64,000 bases of DNA, taken from the NCBI GenBank assembly GCA_018241765.1, contig JAFEDD010000023.1, forward strand, positions 49,596 to 113,595. Reading direction: 5' to 3'. The notes beneath the pieces were generated by a model. It had not been told where the DNA came from, ran no database searches, and worked only from the letters and a program-made list of their open reading frames with translations. Source of the stretch: Pseudomonadota bacterium. Lineage in GTDB: Bacteria > Pseudomonadota > Gammaproteobacteria > Burkholderiales > Casimicrobiaceae. Position 1 is the stretch's first letter; each line of letters starts with the position of its first letter. Shown one piece after another: positions 859-28,416 of this stretch. Made by a program: the position numbers and the translations under genes.

Positions 859-934
859 GCGGGAGTAGCTCAGTTGGTAGAGCGCAACCTTGCCAAGGTT
901 GAGGTCGCGAGTTCGAGACTCGTCTCCCGCTCCA
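859..934 (+). tRNA. tRNA-Gly(GCC)
   Basis: 76 nt cloverleaf: GCGGGAG/CTCCCGC acceptor stem, anticodon loop CTTGCCAA, GTTCGAG T-loop, encoded CCA. Confidence 0.98.
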
Positions 935-996: not shown

Positions 997-1070
997 GGCG
1001 GGTTAGCAAAGTGGTTATGCAGCGGATTGCAAATCCGTAGACATCGGTTCGATTCCGGTACCCGCCTCCA
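997..1070 (+). tRNA. tRNA-Cys(GCA)
   Basis: 74 nt cloverleaf: GGCGGGT/ACCCGCC acceptor stem, anticodon stem-loop GCGGA-TTGCAAA-TCCGT, GGTTCGATTCC T-arm, CCA end. Confidence 0.97.
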
Positions 1071-2260: not shown

Positions 2261-3754
2261 ATGCGCAACATCTTCTCCGGCATCAGCACCATCCTCGCCG
2301 TCTGCACGCTGCTCGCCGCAGCGCCAACCAGCGCGGCGCCGGGGGATTTGGATATCACCTTCGGCGCCGGTTCTGGCAAGGTGATAACCACGATTGGCAC
2401 GAGCCAGGACCGAGGACGTGCGATCGCCCTGCAACCCGACGGCAAGATCGTCGTCGCCGGGTATTGCGTGAACGGGATCAACTACGAGTTCTGCCTCGCT
2501 CGCTATCAGTTCAACGGCGCACTCGACACCGATTTTGGTTCAGGCGGCACGGTCATCAGCCCCTTCGATTCATCCGACGGCCTAGCTTGGGCCATCGCAC
2601 TTCAACCCGACGGCAAGATCGTCGTCGCCGGGGCTTGCTACAACAGCACCAACGGCGATTTCTGCCTCGCCCGCTATCAGGCCAGCGGCGCGCTCGACAC
2701 CGGTTTTGGTTCAGGCGGCAAGGTCATCAGCCCCATCGGTTCAGGCCACGATGCAGCCTACGCCGTCGCGCTGCAACCTGATGGCAAGATCGTCCTCGCC
2801 GGAGGTTGCCGGAACGGCAGTGGCTACGTCTTCTGCCTCGCTCGCTATCAGGTCAACGGCGCGCTCGACACCAGTTTTGGTTCAGACGGCAAGGTCATCA
2901 ACCCCAACGGCTCTGACGACGACCGAGCCTGGGCCATCGCCCTGCAACCCGACGGCAAGATCGTCGTCGCCGGGTCTTGCAAGAACGGCAGCAACTTTGA
3001 CTTCTGCCTCGCCCGCTATCAGGCCAACGGCGCGCTCGACTCCGGTTTTGGTTCAGGCGGCACGGTCATCAGCCCCATCGGTTCATACAACGACTTTGGC
3101 CAAGCCATCGCGCTGCAACCGGACGGCAAAATCGTCGCCGCCGGGTCTTGCGAAAACGGCAGCAAGAACGACTTCTGCCTCGCCCGCTATCAGGCCAACG
3201 GCGCGCTCGACTCCGGCTTTGGTTCAGGCGGCAAGATCATCAGCCCCATCAGTTCATCCACCGACTTTGGCGCTGCCATCGCGCTGCAACCCGACGGCAA
3301 GATCGTCGTCGCCGGGTCTTGCGCGGGTGTCAGCAGCTACGACTTCTGCCTTGCTCGCTATCAGGCCAACGGCGCACTCGACACCAGTTTTGGTTCAGGC
3401 GGCAAGGTCATCAGCCCCATCGGTTCATCCACCGACTATGACGGCGCCATCGCGCTGCAACCCGACGGCAAGATCGTCGTCGCCGGGTCTTGCGACAACG
3501 GCAGCGACTACGACTTCTGCCTCGCCCGCTTCGAGGGCGGGCCGTTCGGCTATCGCAACTGCACGATGGACATCGACGGTGATGGTGTCGTGCTCGCGAC
3601 GACCGACGCGCTGCTTCTTGCCCGCACGTCACTCGGCATGACCGGCAGCGCTGTCATCAACGGCATCAGCTTCGCCAGCCACGCCACCCGCAAGACCTGG
3701 CCTGACATCCGCAACTATCTGATCACCCAGTGCGGCATGACGCTCGCGCCGTAG
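2261..3754 (+). CDS. Secreted delta-60 repeat (beta-propeller-like) protein with C-terminal DxDGDG module
   Basis: Signal peptide; seven ALQPDGKIVVAG...ARY...GALDxxFG repeats; C-terminal CTMDIDGDG...TTDALLLAR..LGMTG. Confidence 0.85.
   Translation: MRNIFSGISTILAVCTLLAAAPTSAAPGDLDITFGAGSGKVITTIGTSQDRGRAIALQPDGKIVVAGYCVNGINYEFCLARYQFNGALDTDFGSGGTVISPFDSSDGLAWAIALQPDGKIVVAGACYNSTNGDFCLARYQASGALDTGFGSGGKVISPIGSGHDAAYAVALQPDGKIVLAGGCRNGSGYVFCLARYQVNGALDTSFGSDGKVINPNGSDDDRAWAIALQPDGKIVVAGSCKNGSNFDFCLARYQANGALDSGFGSGGTVISPIGSYNDFGQAIALQPDGKIVAAGSCENGSKNDFCLARYQANGALDSGFGSGGKIISPISSSTDFGAAIALQPDGKIVVAGSCAGVSSYDFCLARYQANGALDTSFGSGGKVISPIGSSTDYDGAIALQPDGKIVVAGSCDNGSDYDFCLARFEGGPFGYRNCTMDIDGDGVVLATTDALLLARTSLGMTGSAVINGISFASHATRKTWPDIRNYLITQCGMTLAP
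2341..3531 (+). repeat. Intragenic tandem repeat, period exactly 171 bp (57 aa), seven units
   Basis: Leu codon of ALQPDGK starts at 2429, 2600, 2771, 2942, 3113, 3284, 3455. Confidence 0.95.
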
Positions 3755-3931: not shown

Positions 3932-3965
3932 GCGTAGCCTCGCTGCAACGAAGTGGAATCGAGGG
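3932..3965 (+). repeat. GTAG-type REP element, copy 1
   Basis: GCGTAGCCTCGCTGCAACGAAGTGGAATCGAGGG; internal CCTCG...CGAGG palindrome after a GTAG tetranucleotide. Confidence 0.8.
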
Positions 3966-4009
3966 CGATGGATCTCGGTTCGAATCGACACGCCAGGCGC
4001 AGCAGTAGT

Positions 4010-4043
4010 GCGTAGCCTCGATGGAACGAAGTGGAATCGAGGG
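4010..4043 (+). repeat. GTAG-type REP element, copy 2
   Basis: GCGTAGCCTCGATGGAACGAAGTGGAATCGAGGG. Confidence 0.85.
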
Positions 4044-4296
4044 TGATGGCATGACGCAAGCGGTGCTTGCAAGGGCTACCCGTGCCGACGCGAACGAGCC
4101 CGAGCGAAGCCGCCGTGGTCGCGCTGCGCGAAAACGCCCGCACCCGGAGGCTCGTGCTGAGCGTGATTGGGCGAAGAATTTCCTTGATTGGCGCGGTTTG
4201 CATGGCAACTTTCACGTACCGACGCCATCGTCGCGTCATCGACTTGTTCTCGGTACGATGTGACACTCAATTAACTCATTGATTTACAAGTAAAAC

Positions 4297-4432: not shown

Positions 4433-4467
4433 CACGTACCCTCGATAGAACGAAGTGGAATCGAGGG
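4433..4467 (+). repeat. GTAG-type REP element, copy 3 (variant)
   Basis: CACGTACCCTCGATAGAACGAAGTGGAATCGAGGG. Confidence 0.75.
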
Positions 4468-4633
4468 CGATGGCATGAAGCAAGCGCCGCGCGCAGGCGC
4501 GGGCTTGACCGCGCTTGGCGGTCTTCGACGCCGGGTTGCGATGATCCACCGAGCGCGAGCGACTAGAATTCGCGCTTTCGCTGGCTGCCGCGTGTAGCCT
4601 CCTCCTCCCCCTTACCGCACCCATCCGGCCGCC

Positions 4634-26051: not shown

Positions 26052-26203
26052 GCGGAACGAAGCGCCCTCAATTTGCCCACCCCTCGAACATACTCCCACA
26101 ATGTCGTTTGCGGCGACCGGTTCGCGTCTGTTAACTTTGAATGATCGCGTCGGTCGGCACAGGTCGGTCAGTTCGCGCGGCGCAACACAATACGGGAGAG
26201 GAA

Positions 26204-27001
26204 ATGAACTTGAAAACAAATGCATTGGTGACGTTGTTCATGGTGGTCGCCATGGCGGCTGCCGCGGCCGATCGCGCCGATCCGCCGGGCCGCGTCGCCT
26301 CCGCCGGCGCGCCGCCCACACCCGAAGCGCTCGGCAGCCTCACGGCGGACTTGGTGTTCACCCCGATGACCCCTTGCCGCATCGTCGATACTCGTCTGAC
26401 GGGGTCCGGCGCCTTGAATGCCAACAGCACCCGCAACTTCCTCGCGCTCAACGCTGCCAATTTTTCCAGTCAGGGCGGATCGAGCAGCAACTGTGGGACC
26501 CTTGGGTTGAATGGCGGCGGCGTTGTGCTGGTCGTCACGGCGATCACGCCCAGCGCGGCCGGGTACGCCACGCTCCACGCATATGGCTCATCGACGCCCG
26601 CCACCGTGAACCTCCAATACGCCGCCGGCGCCATCCAGTCGGGCAGCCAGCTGGTGCAAATTCCGAACCCGCTGTCGTCGTACGATTTCACCCTCTACAC
26701 GTCCGCACAATCGCACTTCACGATCGACTTCGTAGGCTATTTCGCGCCACCCGTGGCCACTGCGCTCGCGTGCTCGGACACCAGCAACACGGTGGCATCG
26801 GTCGCCGCTGGGGGCTCCGCCAACGTGAACGCTCCTCTCTGCCCCGCGGGCTTCACGCCCACGGCAACCAATTGCGAAAGCGGCACCTGGGAGATGCCGC
26901 TGGTGTTCTTTCATGGCGGGACGTGTTCGGCGAAAAACAACGGCGCAGCGCCCGCTGAGCTGCGCGCGTCGCGCACGTGCTGCCGCGTGCCCGGCCGTTG
27001 A
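26204..27001 (+). CDS. Exported hypothetical protein with PCRIVDTR motif and Cys-rich C-terminus
   Basis: RBS GAGAGGA; signal peptide; FTPMTPCRIVDTR; DFVGYF; seven further Cys. Confidence 0.75.
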   Translation: MNLKTNALVTLFMVVAMAAAAADRADPPGRVASAGAPPTPEALGSLTADLVFTPMTPCRIVDTRLTGSGALNANSTRNFLALNAANFSSQGGSSSNCGTLGLNGGGVVLVVTAITPSAAGYATLHAYGSSTPATVNLQYAAGAIQSGSQLVQIPNPLSSYDFTLYTSAQSHFTIDFVGYFAPPVATALACSDTSNTVASVAAGGSANVNAPLCPAGFTPTATNCESGTWEMPLVFFHGGTCSAKNNGAAPAELRASRTCCRVPGR

Positions 27002-27015
27002 GACCGCCGCAACCC

Positions 27016-28416
27016 ATGAAGGGCTTCACCCTGTTGCGCGCGTCGCGCGCGCGCATCCAGCGATTCGTGGCGGGCGTGGCGGCAACGGCGTTTGCCGCCA
27101 CACTGCTCAGCGTCGATGCCGCCGTGCTCGCCTACGTCCCGTCCCACACCGGGTCATCCGTCACCGTCGTCGACACGGCCAGCAACGCCTTGCTGACCAG
27201 CATTGCAGTCAGCAGCGCACCCATCGGCGTCGCCGCGTCGCCCGACGGCCGCTTCATCTATGTCGCGAGCCATAACGGCAATGCGATCAGCGTCATCTCG
27301 ACCAACGCGCAGAGCGTGGTGGCGACCATCGTCGTCGCCGGCAAACCGATGGGCGTCGCGGTGTCGCCCGACGGCTCGCGCCTGTACGTGACGCACTTCG
27401 CCCCGGCGGCGGCCTCGGGCGCCGGCTCCGTCTGGGTAGGCGGCACGCTGTCGGTGATCGACACCCTCGCACGCACGGTACTGGGCGCGATCAACGTCGG
27501 CGCCAATCCGGCGGGAGTCGCCGTGGCGCCCAATGGCAGCAGGGTGTACGTCGCCAACGCCGGCGACGGCACGGTGAGCGTGGTGACGGCGGCGTCGAAT
27601 ACCGTGACGGCGACGCTTGCGGTGCAGTCGAACCCGGTGGGTGTGGCGGCCTCGGCCGATGGTCAGCGCGTGTACGTCGCCAACAGCGGCAGCGCGTCGC
27701 TCAGCGTGATCGACGCCACCTCGCTGACGGTCACCAACAGCATCACCGTCGGCGGCTACGCCAGCGGCGTCGCCGTCAGTGACGATTCAAGCCGTGTGCT
27801 GGTCAGCAACAACTTCGACGACTCGGTCAGCGTGATCGATGCCGCGACTCTGGCGGTCGTCGCCACCATCAAGAGCGGCATCGGGGCGGCGCCATCGGGT
27901 GTCGCCTTCATTCCCGGCACCGCAAACGCACTCGTCGCCAACACCCAAGGCGCAACGCTGAGCCGCGTCGCCACCGCCACCGCCAGCGCGAGCGTGGTGA
28001 CGCCGGCGTCGCTTGGCTGGCCGATCAGCCTGGGCAAGTTCATCGCCACGACGCCGACGTGTGCGCTGGATGTCAGCGGCGACAATCTGGTCACCGGCGC
28101 CTCCGACGGGTTGCTGATCCTTCGCTACCTGCTCGGCGTGCGCGGCAGTGCACTGATCCAGAACGTAAGCGGCATTGCCAGCGGCGTGACGGCACCGATC
28201 ATCGAGCAACGCATCGCGGCGCTCAATGTCGATGCCGACGGAGATGGCACCTCACAGGCAACCACCGACGGCTTGCTGCTCGTGCGCGCCATGCTGCACC
28301 TGACGGGCACGGCGCTCATCGGCAACGCCCGCAACACCGGTTTCGGCGGGGTTCGCAGCGCCAGCCAGATCCTTCAGTGGATCACCGACACCCACGGCGC
28401 GAGTTGCCTGTTGTGA
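27016..28416 (+). CDS. Secreted YVTN/YncE beta-propeller protein with duplicated C-terminal DxDGDG-like module
   Basis: Repeated PxGVAxSPDGxRxYVAN units; CALDVSGDN..ASDGLLILRYLLG and VDADGDG..ATTDGLLLVRAML. Confidence 0.85.
   Translation: MKGFTLLRASRARIQRFVAGVAATAFAATLLSVDAAVLAYVPSHTGSSVTVVDTASNALLTSIAVSSAPIGVAASPDGRFIYVASHNGNAISVISTNAQSVVATIVVAGKPMGVAVSPDGSRLYVTHFAPAAASGAGSVWVGGTLSVIDTLARTVLGAINVGANPAGVAVAPNGSRVYVANAGDGTVSVVTAASNTVTATLAVQSNPVGVAASADGQRVYVANSGSASLSVIDATSLTVTNSITVGGYASGVAVSDDSSRVLVSNNFDDSVSVIDAATLAVVATIKSGIGAAPSGVAFIPGTANALVANTQGATLSRVATATASASVVTPASLGWPISLGKFIATTPTCALDVSGDNLVTGASDGLLILRYLLGVRGSALIQNVSGIASGVTAPIIEQRIAALNVDADGDGTSQATTDGLLLVRAMLHLTGTALIGNARNTGFGGVRSASQILQWITDTHGASCLL

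What the first reader, a model, noticed from the sequence alone, without database searches (positions are those of the whole stretch)
3560..3754. Shared C-terminal DxDGDG module on two unrelated secreted beta-propeller proteins
Seen: the delta-60 protein ends with CTMDIDGDG-VVLATTDALLLARTSLGMTGSAVING. The unrelated YVTN protein 24 kb away ends with two copies (28060-28416): CALDVSGDN-LVTGASDGLLILRYLLGVRGSALI and VDADGDG-TSQATTDGLLLVRAMLHLTGTALI. Established: DxDxDG loops followed by D-x-L-L-x-R/Y helices resemble the Ca-binding dockerin/EF-hand repeat. Inference: a modular C-terminal tag that docks diverse passenger proteins onto an unidentified surface scaffold or secretion route in a Gram-negative cell.
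Basis: partly seen in the sequence, partly recalled or inferred. Interest (0 to 1): 0.62.

Follow-up and report, generated by a model that had tools for sequence, protein, structure and literature searches.

The report
Divergent dockerin-like calcium module on exported proteins
Two unrelated exported propeller proteins in this window end in the same small helical, probably calcium-binding module, a distant and so far unnamed relative of the dockerin modules that clip enzymes onto scaffolds, and it is widespread in uncultured Burkholderiales, with its binding partner still unknown.

Summary
A delta-60 propeller protein (2261-3754) ends in one copy, and an unrelated YVTN propeller protein (26977-28416) ends in two copies, of a 55-65 residue unit. 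The unit is a DxDGDG loop, a helix (TDGLLxxRYLLG, Arg invariant), a turn, then a second helix.

An HMM built without window sequences hits only these two ORFs in the six-frame translation (E 2e-28 and 1e-16; next best 0.11). The family is large: 7137 clusters at 50% identity. Pfam and NCBIfam do not match the window copies, and sources call relatives "hypothetical protein".

Units usually come in pairs, mostly at the extreme C-terminus, on very diverse Sec-exported passengers. In DUF1800 proteins the pair sits at the mature N-terminus. A covarying cysteine pair clasps the two ends.

It is a remote dockerin/EF-hand relative:
- Pfam Dockerin_1 weakly matches 50 of 90 family modules.
- The best PDB sequence hit is a dockerin (E 0.0018).
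- The spacing, loop length and predicted fold differ from dockerins, and Foldseek finds no significant match.

No cohesin or other partner gene was found. Modules within one genome are no more alike than modules from different genomes.

Most likely it is a Ca-stabilised tethering module, not a secretion signal. That function is inferred, not shown.

The parts
2261..3754 (+). Protein A, 497 aa: signal peptide, 7 delta-60 (DUF5122) propeller repeats, and one C-terminal module unit
   Evidence: ORF. TIGR02608 E 2.1e-117 and PF17164 E 3e-73. The identical protein is on two metagenome contigs.
2261..2335 (+). Predicted Sec signal peptide of protein A (MRNIFSGISTILAVCTLLAAAPTSA|AP)
   Evidence: Read from the sequence. 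No predictor was run.
3557..3736 (+). Module unit of protein A (residues 433-492): Cys434, 13-residue loop DIDGDGVVLATTD (3569-3607), helix ALLLARTSLG (3608-3637), second helix TWPDIRNYLITQCG (3695-3736) with Cys491
   Evidence: HMM built without window sequences: E 1.2e-16. AF2 of the single unit: pLDDT 94.2, helices 14-25, 31-34 and 48-59. Coordinates.
26977..28416 (+). Protein B, 479 aa from the GTG start (a likelier start is ATG at 27016): signal peptide, YVTN beta-propeller, and a C-terminal two-unit module
   Evidence: ORF. TIGR02276 E 1.1e-49. Orthologues are in L003, L007, L010 and L011.
27016..27120 (+). Predicted signal peptide of protein B (MKGFTLLRASRARIQRFVAGVAATAFAATLLSVDA|AV)
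   Evidence: Read from the sequence. No predictor was run.
28057..28224 (+). Module unit 1 of protein B: Cys362, loop DVSGDNLVTGASD (28069-28107; ligand position 3 is Ser), helix GLLILRYLLG (28108-28137), second helix APIIEQRIAAL (28192-28224)
   Evidence: AF2 of the two-unit tail: pLDDT 90.5, pTM 0.82.
28225..28407 (+). Module unit 2 of protein B: loop DADGDGTSQATTD (28231-28269), helix GLLLVRAMLH (28270-28299), second helix SASQILQWITDTHGASC (28357-28407) ending in Cys477
   Evidence: Cys362 and Cys477 are the only two cysteines in protein B.
26141..27001 (+). Upstream ORF (286 aa, exported, Cys-rich C-terminus, no known family) overlapping the start of protein B. It is a conserved operon partner of the YVTN passenger, not of the module in general.
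   Evidence: 53-58% identical ORFs lie directly upstream of B orthologues in L003, L007, L010 and L011. No Pfam, NCBIfam or PDB match.

Best explanation
The shared tail is an autonomous, all-helical, probably Ca2+-binding domain. It is a distant, long-linker relative of the type I dockerin 'double F-hand'.

Anatomy:
- One unit is 55-65 residues: a DxDGDG-type loop (13 residues here, 12 in some relatives), an amphipathic helix (T-D-G-L-L-I-L-R-Y-L-L-G, Arg invariant), a G-x-A-L-x-x-G-A turn, and a second helix (R..x..I-x-x-Y-L).
- Two units normally pack into one domain of about 115 residues, as in protein B. Protein A carries a one-unit variant.
- In the subfamily present in this window, a disulfide between a Cys three residues before the first loop and a Cys at the very end ties the two termini together. 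This is a covalent version of the terminal 'clasp' described for dockerins.

Proposed mechanism:
- The protein is exported by Sec.
- The module folds in the oxidising, Ca-containing periplasm or exterior.
- It then tethers its passenger to a partner that is still unidentified: a protein or an envelope/matrix component. Passengers include propellers, Ig-like repeats, peptidases and dehydrogenase-like proteins.

Shown here: the family, its modularity, its position at protein ends, the remote dockerin/EF-hand relationship, the confident helical prediction, and the Cys covariation.

Inferred only: Ca binding, the disulfide, and the tethering function.
For: Family and modularity:
- The exhaustive profile search finds 7137 clusters at E<=1e-3 and 5279 at E<=1e-10.
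- In the top 149 representatives, 126 have 2 units and 21 have 4. Unit spacing is 54-61 aa. The last unit ends within 10 aa of the C-terminus in 132.
- Passengers are diverse. Of 89 scanned: DUF5122 in 37, DUF11 in 6, InlB-type repeats in 5, plus C25 and M12 peptidases, Big_9, cadherin, kelch, TIG, fn3, Calx-beta and PG_binding_1. GSDH+PKD and DUF1800 also occur.
- There are 2-6 module genes per MAG as lower bounds.

Dockerin/EF-hand relationship:
- Dockerin_1 weakly matches 50 of 90 family modules. The next families are EF-hand_1 (8) and FG-GAP (6).
- In L037 the Dockerin_1 alignment spans module residues 6-83 against profile positions 3-56. F-hand 1 therefore maps to unit 1 and F-hand 2 to unit 2.
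- L054 scores 27.6 bits, above the cut-off of 22.9.
- The best PDB profile hits are dockerins (1ohz_B, E 0.0018), followed by calmodulins.
- Loop consensus is D1-x-D3-G-D/N5-G-x-x-D9-A-x-T-D13. DUF1800 members have a canonical 12-residue loop, DINGNGVFDADD.

Fold: AF2 gives pLDDT 90.5 and pTM 0.82 for the two-unit tail, and pLDDT 94.2 for one unit. Both are all-helical.

Clasp:
- N-flank and C-flank Cys co-occur in two-unit modules: 84 have both, 147 have neither, 17 have one. Fisher p = 1.6e-46.
- Protein B has exactly two Cys, both flanking the module.
- Dockerins have a terminal clasp at positions -3 to -1 (PMC3821032).

Not position-dependent: in DUF1800 proteins the module follows the signal peptide directly, at the mature N-terminus.
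Against: - No Ca-binding or binding experiment exists.
- The window copies have no Pfam or NCBIfam match even at E<=10.
- Foldseek finds nothing significant in the PDB. Dockerins appear only at E 0.9-2.5 with TM 0.28-0.43.
- Many first-unit loops have lost acidic ligands (for example NVDGSLATHVLSD; S at position 3 in B unit 1), so Ca binding cannot be universal.
- No cohesin or other candidate partner recurs next to module genes.
- Modules on unrelated passengers are 36.5% identical within a genome and 36.6% between genomes. Cellulosomal dockerins that share one cohesin behave differently (established knowledge, not tested here).
- Some passengers (YVTN/YncE-like, GSDH-like) belong to families whose characterised members are periplasmic (own knowledge). 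The compartment is therefore unknown.
Confidence: 0.5

Rival explanations
1. It is a purely structural Ca-dependent stabilising or folding cap. The module only rigidifies or protects the end of exported proteins, for example against proteases or during folding after export. It binds nothing else.
For: - No partner gene was found.
- There is no within-genome homogenisation of modules.
- The strongest conservation lies in residues that look like core positions of helix 1 and the following turn.
- The disulfide clasp suggests selection for stability.
Against: A stabiliser specific to one fold would not be expected on so many unrelated passengers, nor at either end of the protein. That distribution is typical of anchoring or interaction modules (inference). 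The invariant Arg and Asp across 428 units could instead mark a conserved binding site.
Confidence: 0.22
2. It is a true cohesin-dockerin system. The module binds a cohesin-like beta-sandwich scaffold encoded elsewhere in the genome and assembles a multi-protein surface complex, as in cellulosomes.
For: - Remote sequence relationship to type I dockerins.
- Paired pseudo-symmetric units.
- A terminal clasp as in dockerins.
- Several module proteins per genome.
- P0019 carries both this module and a canonical dockerin.
Against: - No Cohesin match among the neighbours that were scanned.
- The window modules fail the Dockerin_1 model.
- The predicted fold is not significantly dockerin-like.
- Modules in a genome are only about 37% identical to each other, no more than between genomes.
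- Whole genomes were not searched for cohesins.
Confidence: 0.15
3. It is a C-terminal secretion or sorting signal. A dedicated export or sorting machine would recognise it, by analogy with the T9SS C-terminal domain, PEP-CTERM/exosortase, GlyGly-CTERM or T1SS signals.
For: The module is at the extreme C-terminus in 132 of the top 149 representatives. Passengers are diverse.
Against: - Both window proteins and many relatives have N-terminal Sec signal peptides.
- The module sits at the mature N-terminus of DUF1800 proteins and of fn3/Lcl_C proteins.
- There is no transmembrane or hydrophobic tail, and no NCBIfam sorting-domain match.
- No sortase-like or secretion gene is linked.
- There are no GGxGxD RTX repeats.
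Confidence: 0.08
4. The loops belong to the beta-propellers. They would be FG-GAP- or integrin-type Ca-binding blade loops, not a separate module.
For: Both passengers are propellers. FG-GAP gives weak hits on 6 of 90 modules, through the DxDxDG loop.
Against: - The tail is predicted all-helical at pLDDT 90-94.
- It occurs on non-propeller passengers and at N-termini.
- The propeller repeat models end before it.
Confidence: 0.02

Closest known systems
Type I dockerin module (Pfam PF00404 Dockerin_1; e.g. C. thermocellum Xyn10B dockerin, PDB 1OHZ chain B)
   Same: - Ca-type loop followed by a helix with the D-x-x-L-L-x-R-Y-L-L-G signature.
- Two such segments per domain.
- N- and C-termini held together by a clasp.
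- Appended to the ends of diverse exported proteins.
- It is the best PDB sequence hit (E 0.0018) and the commonest weak Pfam hit (50 of 90 family modules).
   Different: - The window copies do not match the Pfam model at all.
- The two loops are 54-61 residues apart, against about 33 in dockerins by my count.
- Each unit has an extra conserved turn and second helix.
- The loop is 13 residues rather than 12 in most members.
- The domain is about 115 aa rather than about 65.
- Protein A has a one-loop version.
- The clasp is a disulfide.
- The carriers that could be named are mostly uncultured Burkholderiales MAGs, and the passengers are not glycoside hydrolases.
- No cohesin was found.
- Foldseek similarity is not significant.
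Non-cellulosomal dockerin-like modules (Peer et al. 2009, FEMS Microbiol Lett, 'Noncellulosomal cohesin- and dockerin-like modules in the three domains of life'; cited from my own knowledge and seen in the reference lists of papers found)
   Same: Dockerin-like Ca-loop modules on non-cellulolytic proteins across many lineages, mostly of unknown function and often without an identified cohesin.
   Different: Those modules were defined by matches to canonical dockerin models. The present family mostly escapes those models and has its own longer unit architecture. I could not read that paper, so I cannot say whether any of these sequences were included.
EF-hand / DxDxDG calcium loops (calmodulin; Pfam EF-hand_1, EF-hand_5; the DxDxDG motif survey of Rigden and Galperin 2004, from my own knowledge)
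   Same: Acidic ligands at loop positions 1, 3, 5 and 9 and at the start of the exiting helix. Calmodulins are weak PDB hits (E 0.02-0.07).
   Different: There is no entering helix. One extra residue lies before the last Asp. The last ligand is Asp, not Glu. Pfam EF-hand models hit only 3-8 of 90 modules, at E>=0.01.
C-terminal sorting domains of Gram-negative bacteria (T9SS CTD, PEP-CTERM, GlyGly-CTERM)
   Same: A short shared module at the C-terminus of many unrelated exported proteins within one genome.
   Different: This one is helical and soluble. It has no transmembrane segment and no linked sorting enzyme, and it also occurs at N-termini.

Membership tests
Type I dockerin (Pfam PF00404 Dockerin_1) | Match to the Pfam model at or above its gathering score (22.9 bits) | tested here: not met
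   The window tails give no Pfam hit even at E<=10. Across the family, 50 of 90 modules hit weakly. Of ten examined individually, one (L054, 27.6 bits) passes and the others score 12.9-21.4 bits.
Type I dockerin (Pfam PF00404 Dockerin_1) | Two tandem F-hand segments (12-residue Ca loop plus helix) in a module of about 60-70 residues | tested here: not met
   Protein B has two loops, but they are 54 residues apart, 13 residues long, and lie in a domain of about 115 residues. Protein A has a single loop. Some relatives have 12-residue loops.
Type I dockerin (Pfam PF00404 Dockerin_1) | Three-helix dockerin fold | tested here: inconclusive
   The confident AF2 models are helical, with a long-short-long helix pattern per unit. 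Foldseek against the PDB gives dockerins only at E 0.9-2.5 and TM 0.28-0.43. Small helical domains are hard cases for Foldseek.
Type I dockerin (Pfam PF00404 Dockerin_1) | Intramolecular clasp between residues just before loop 1 and the C-terminus | tested here: met
   A Cys at -3 and a C-terminal Cys covary (84/13/4/147, p = 1.6e-46). Protein B has only these two Cys. Dockerin clasps are described in PMC3821032. The disulfide itself is inferred.
Type I dockerin (Pfam PF00404 Dockerin_1) | Ca-dependent binding to a cohesin encoded by the same organism | not testable with these tools
   No Cohesin match among the neighbours scanned. Whole genomes could not be searched, and there is no binding assay.
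EF-hand (Pfam PF00036 and relatives) | Helix, 12-residue loop, helix, with Glu at loop position 12; match to the Pfam models | tested here: not met
   EF-hand_1 hits 8 of 90 modules (best E 0.088) and EF-hand_5 hits 4 of 90. The last ligand is Asp at position 13 and there is no entering helix.
C-terminal sorting signals (PEP-CTERM, GlyGly-CTERM, T9SS CTD) | Extreme C-terminal position with a transmembrane helix and basic tail, or a beta-sandwich CTD; NCBIfam model match | tested here: not met
   No NCBIfam hit at E<=10. The module is predicted all-helical and soluble. N-terminal occurrences exist.
RTX / type I secretion substrates | GGxGxD nonapeptide repeats, no N-terminal signal peptide, uncleaved C-terminal signal | tested here: not met
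   Both proteins have Sec-type signal peptides and no nonapeptide repeats (sequence). No HemolysinCabind Pfam hit.
delta-60 repeat protein (TIGR02608 / DUF5122), passenger of protein A | Tandem repeats of about 57 residues matching the model above its cut-off | tested here: met
   TIGR02608 scores 382.9 bits (cut-off 76.5) over 7 stretches. PF17164 scores 242 bits.
YVTN beta-propeller repeat protein (TIGR02276), passenger of protein B | Repeats matching the model above its cut-off | tested here: met
   TIGR02276 scores 166.1 bits (cut-off 27.85) over 6 stretches.

The most novel reading that the evidence does not exclude
The module defines a cohesin-independent assembly or tethering system of uncultured Burkholderiales and other environmental bacteria. 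Disulfide-clasped double F-hand domains would bind a conserved non-cohesin receptor. The receptor could be an envelope or matrix component, or another copy of the module, with one-unit proteins such as protein A completing a two-unit fold in trans. This would organise many unrelated exported proteins, as a Gram-negative counterpart of cellulosome-style docking with a different partner logic.
Probability: 0.2. Interest if true: 0.7.

Novelty: new variant of a known kind. Interest (0 to 1): 0.45.

Why it matters
Thousands of exported proteins from environmental bacteria, many from uncultured Burkholderiales MAGs, carry this module. Neither Pfam-A (2025 copy) nor NCBIfam (release 20) recognises the window copies, and sources label the short family members found here "hypothetical protein".

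Defining it as a family would annotate a large block of dark sequence. It would also flag those proteins as extracytoplasmic and probably tethered.

If a partner exists, this would be a new, compact, Ca-switchable and disulfide-stabilised docking pair. It would also be a handle on how these bacteria organise their surface or periplasmic proteins. If no partner exists, it is still a clear example of the dockerin/F-hand motif expanded into a different domain architecture.

Tried and rejected
1. Direct Pfam and NCBIfam scans of the tails at E<=10 gave nothing.
2. Foldseek of both AF2 models against the PDB gave no hit with E<=0.001.
3. I tested whether the second half of a unit is a degenerate second F-hand, using hhalign of half-unit profiles. 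Probability was 1.4%, so the idea was rejected.
4. I searched for a genetically linked partner by clustering all ORFs in 80 loci and scanning the recurrent neighbours with Pfam.
   - The scan returned only syntenic housekeeping or unrelated genes: PAD_porph+DUF5648, DUF1501, TctC, GGDEF, PBP1, an ABC exporter and PhoH.
   - Neighbours of B in the window are DHDPS-like, GntR/FCD, MBL-fold, aldehyde dehydrogenase and dihydroxy-acid dehydratase genes.
5. I tested for cellulosome-like within-genome homogenisation of modules and found none: 36.5% against 36.6% identity, p = 0.57.
6. Stand-alone one-unit ORFs (L004 1436-1660, L012 4106-4345) were considered as free adaptor proteins. They lack signal peptides and look like remnants of second units, so this was rejected.
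7. Literature:
   - 'delta-60 repeat' returns no paper.
   - Dockerin searches returned only cellulosome and engineering papers, with no description of this family.
8. The first search for related loci attempt, with the broad alignment A2, failed for lack of a conserved stretch. It was repeated with A5.
9. Looking up P0269, the nearest relative of protein A's tail on a long contig, showed only a delta-60 gene split into 446 aa and 99 aa.
Full report
**1. The observation**

Protein A (2261-3754, +, 497 aa) has a signal peptide and seven delta-60/DUF5122 repeats (TIGR02608 E 2e-117). It ends in ...NCTMDIDGDGVVLATTDALLLARTSLGMTGSAVINGISFASHATRKTWPDIRNYLITQCGMTLAP.

Protein B (26977-28416, +, 479 aa) has a signal peptide and YVTN propeller repeats (TIGR02276 E 1e-49). 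It ends in two copies of the same kind of unit.

A regex scan of all six frames finds only these three copies. The tails align at BLASTP E 5e-9 and 9e-9, while the passengers are unrelated (E 1.5).

I built an HMM from 532 units taken from other sources, excluding the window. Run with filters off on the whole six-frame translation, it hits only these two ORFs (E 2.1e-28 and 1.2e-16). The next best segment is at E 0.11.

**2. What the unit is**

Searches with the two tails returned 18 short metagenomic relatives.
- an optional Cys
- L-D-x-D-G-D-G-x-x-x-A-x-T-D
- G-L-L-I-L-R-Y-L-L-G-L-R/T-G-x-A-L-x-x-G-A
- about 8 variable residues, then R-x-x-x-x-I-x-x-Y-L
- an optional Cys

A logo from 214 unit pairs shows:
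- an invariant Arg in helix 1
- an Asp at the helix start in 99-100% of units
- loop acidic or amide positions at 1, 3, 5, 9 and 13

That loop is one residue longer than the 12-residue EF-hand or dockerin loop. Some relatives do have 12-residue loops: the odd units of P0020 and DINGNGVFDADD in DUF1800 proteins. First-unit loops are often degenerate, so not every loop can bind Ca.

**3. Size and architecture of the family**

An exhaustive profile search of 1.84 billion representatives finds 7137 clusters at E<=1e-3, 5279 at E<=1e-10 and 642 at E<=1e-30.

In the best 149 representatives:
- 126 have two units and 21 have four.
- Unit starts are 54-61 residues apart.
- The last unit ends within 10 residues of the C-terminus in 132.

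This set is biased towards multi-unit proteins. The usual functional entity is therefore a pair of units; protein A carries a one-unit variant that has its own relatives.

Passengers are very diverse. Of 89 scanned:
- DUF5122/delta-60 in 37
- DUF11 in 6
- InlB-type repeats in 5
- C25 and M12 peptidases, Big_9, cadherin-like, kelch, TIG, fn3, Calx-beta, PPC and PG_binding_1 in the rest

Delta-60 proteins elsewhere carry the two-unit version ending THGVACLP, like protein B (P0037 and P0040). The module is therefore shuffled between passengers.

**4. Where it occurs**

Protein A itself is found only on metagenome contigs. A scan of species-representative genomes with two conserved peptide patterns returned 80 loci:
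- Nearly all are from uncultured Burkholderiales/Betaproteobacteria MAGs, including Casimicrobium and Casimicrobiaceae.
- Some are from Pseudomonadales/Gammaproteobacteria, a Thiohalocapsa and a Desulfobacterales MAG.
- One is a 7-kb contig binned as Nanoarchaeota, which could be mis-binned.

Each MAG holds 2-6 module genes. These are lower bounds, because the patterns were narrow. The window organism is thus probably an uncultured Burkholderiales (66% GC); this is an inference.

**5. Not strictly C-terminal**

In at least six loci a DUF1800 protein of about 780 aa carries the two-unit module, with its Cys pair, immediately after the signal peptide. It lies next to a DUF1501 gene and near a GSDH(+PKD) protein with a C-terminal module. 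In L022 the module precedes fn3 and Lcl_C domains. L081 looks the same, but its ORF is cut by the contig end.

Together with the Sec signal peptides and the absence of a hydrophobic tail, this argues against a position-dependent secretion or sorting signal.

**6. Relationship to dockerins**

The window tails match nothing in Pfam or NCBIfam at E<=10. Short family members are named 'hypothetical protein' and have no precomputed Pfam domain on the module.

Across the family the signal is clearer:
- When 90 two-unit modules are scanned individually at E<=10, Dockerin_1 is hit by 50 (best 3.4e-6). EF-hand_1 is hit by 8 and FG-GAP by 6.
- In L037 the Dockerin_1 alignment runs from module residue 6 to 83 against profile positions 3-56. 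The two dockerin F-hands therefore correspond to the loops and first helices of units 1 and 2, with a long insertion between them.
- L054 passes the gathering score (27.6 against 22.9 bits).
- A 90-sequence profile finds dockerins as the best PDB sequences (1ohz_B E 0.0018; 2ccl_B; 4uyp_B and 4uyq_B), followed by calmodulins at E 0.02-0.07. The smaller 23-unit profile gave the same ranking at E 0.11.

The module is therefore a remote relative of the dockerin F-hand, at the fringe of the Pfam family. The window copies are not members by the model's criterion.

**7. Predicted structure**

AF2 predicts:
- the B two-unit tail at pLDDT 90.5 and pTM 0.82, with helices at 21-32, 38-41, 53-61, 75-86, 91-95 and 109-120
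- the A single unit at pLDDT 94.2, with helices at 14-25, 31-34 and 48-59

Foldseek against the PDB gives no hit at E<=0.001. Dockerins appear at ranks 2 (two-unit model) and 1, 3 and 6 (one-unit model), but only at E 0.9-2.5 and TM 0.28-0.43. The overall fold is thus not demonstrably that of a dockerin. The second half of a unit is not a detectable degenerate F-hand (hhalign probability 1.4%).

**8. The clasp**

In two-unit modules, a Cys within a few residues before loop 1 and a Cys near the end co-occur:
- 84 modules have both, 147 have neither, and 17 have one.
- Fisher p is 1.6e-46. Relatedness inflates this figure.

Protein B contains exactly two cysteines, 362 and 477, which flank the module. 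In protein A, Cys434 and Cys491 flank the single unit, and the other mature cysteines form seven regularly spaced pairs in the propeller repeats.

Dockerins have a non-covalent clasp between positions -3 to -1 and the C-terminus. That clasp stabilises the Ca-bound fold and the cohesin-binding site (PMC3821032). A disulfide at the same place is a covalent analogue and implies folding in an oxidising compartment. The disulfide is inferred.

**9. Search for a partner**

I clustered all ORFs of the 80 loci and scanned the recurrent neighbours. This shows only synteny among related MAGs: PAD_porph+DUF5648, DUF1501, TctC, GGDEF, PBP1, an ABC exporter and PhoH.

The window neighbours are metabolic or transport genes. 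The ORF upstream of B (26141-27001) is conserved upstream of B orthologues only, so it belongs with the YVTN passenger rather than with the module.

Modules on unrelated passengers are 36.5% identical within a genome and 36.6% between genomes (p = 0.57). There is no species-specific homogenisation, as one would expect if many dockers co-evolved with one scaffold. If there is a common ligand, it must be read by the family-wide conserved residues.

**10. Interpretation**

Shown:
- a large unnamed family
- modular and end-located
- on exported proteins
- remotely related to dockerin/EF-hand loops
- confidently predicted as a helical domain
- with covarying terminal cysteines

Inferred:
- Ca2+ binding, from the DxDGDG ligand pattern
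- the disulfide
- a tethering function, from the distribution typical of anchoring or interaction modules

My rough confidences are not exclusive. The tethering figure below is the functional step on its own, and it overlaps the cohesin reading. The 0.5 given for the best explanation is for the whole account, anatomy included.
- a Ca-stabilised dockerin-related module: about 0.8
- tethering to some partner or ligand: about 0.45-0.5
- a true cohesin partner: about 0.15
- purely structural: about 0.2
- a secretion signal: under 0.1

**11. Novelty**

Non-cellulosomal dockerin-like modules are known as a class (Peer et al. 2009; own knowledge, seen cited). The following features make this a new variant of a known kind rather than a new kind:
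- the 57-residue unit
- the 115-residue paired domain
- the 13-residue loop
- the disulfide clasp
- the one-unit form
- the lack of any Pfam or NCBIfam match on the window copies

I could not check InterPro superfamily models (Gene3D or SUPERFAMILY dockerin), which may already touch some members.

Noticed in passing
window 26141-27001 (+): A 286-aa exported ORF with a Cys-rich C-terminus overlaps the start of protein B. It has no Pfam, NCBIfam or PDB match. It is conserved (53-58% identity) directly upstream of the YVTN-module orthologues in four MAG loci (L003, L007, L010, L011), which suggests a two-gene operon of unknown function.
   Followed up: partly
window 3933-3998, 4011-4076, 4435-4500: Three copies of a REP-like intergenic repeat of about 66 nt lie just downstream of protein A. 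The core is CCTCGATGGAACGAAGTGGAATCGAGGG, with a short internal inverted repeat.
   Followed up: no
window 859-934 and 997-1070 (+): tRNA-Gly(GCC) and tRNA-Cys(GCA) genes lie between the aminotransferase gene and the SDR gene upstream of protein A.
   Followed up: no
window 2261-3556 (protein A residues 69-420): Each of the seven delta-60 repeats carries a cysteine pair exactly 9 residues apart (69/78, 126/135... 411/420). This suggests one disulfide per blade.
   Followed up: no
L033 4408-10649; also L028, L040, L059, L060, L064: A recurring cluster has three parts: a GSDH-like (+/- PKD) protein with a C-terminal module, a DUF1501 protein, and a DUF1800 protein with the module at its mature N-terminus. 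Two module-bearing proteins sit in one neighbourhood and may form a complex.
   Followed up: partly
P0019 (959 aa, metagenomic representative): One protein combines two PG_binding_1 domains, four units of this module and, separately, a canonical dockerin (residues about 820-869). Both module types can coexist in one protein.
   Followed up: no
L004 1436-1660; L012 4106-4345; L083 901-2557: There are orphan 74-79 aa ORFs consisting of a second unit only, without a signal peptide. There is also a delta-60 gene split into 446 aa and 99 aa. These look like decaying paralogues next to intact module genes.
   Followed up: partly
L029 10015-11733 (-) and 10 other loci: A PAD_porph (agmatine/peptidyl-arginine deiminase type) protein with a C-terminal DUF5648 domain recurs within 6 kb of module genes in 11 loci. 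This is probably synteny, but I did not examine it.
   Followed up: no
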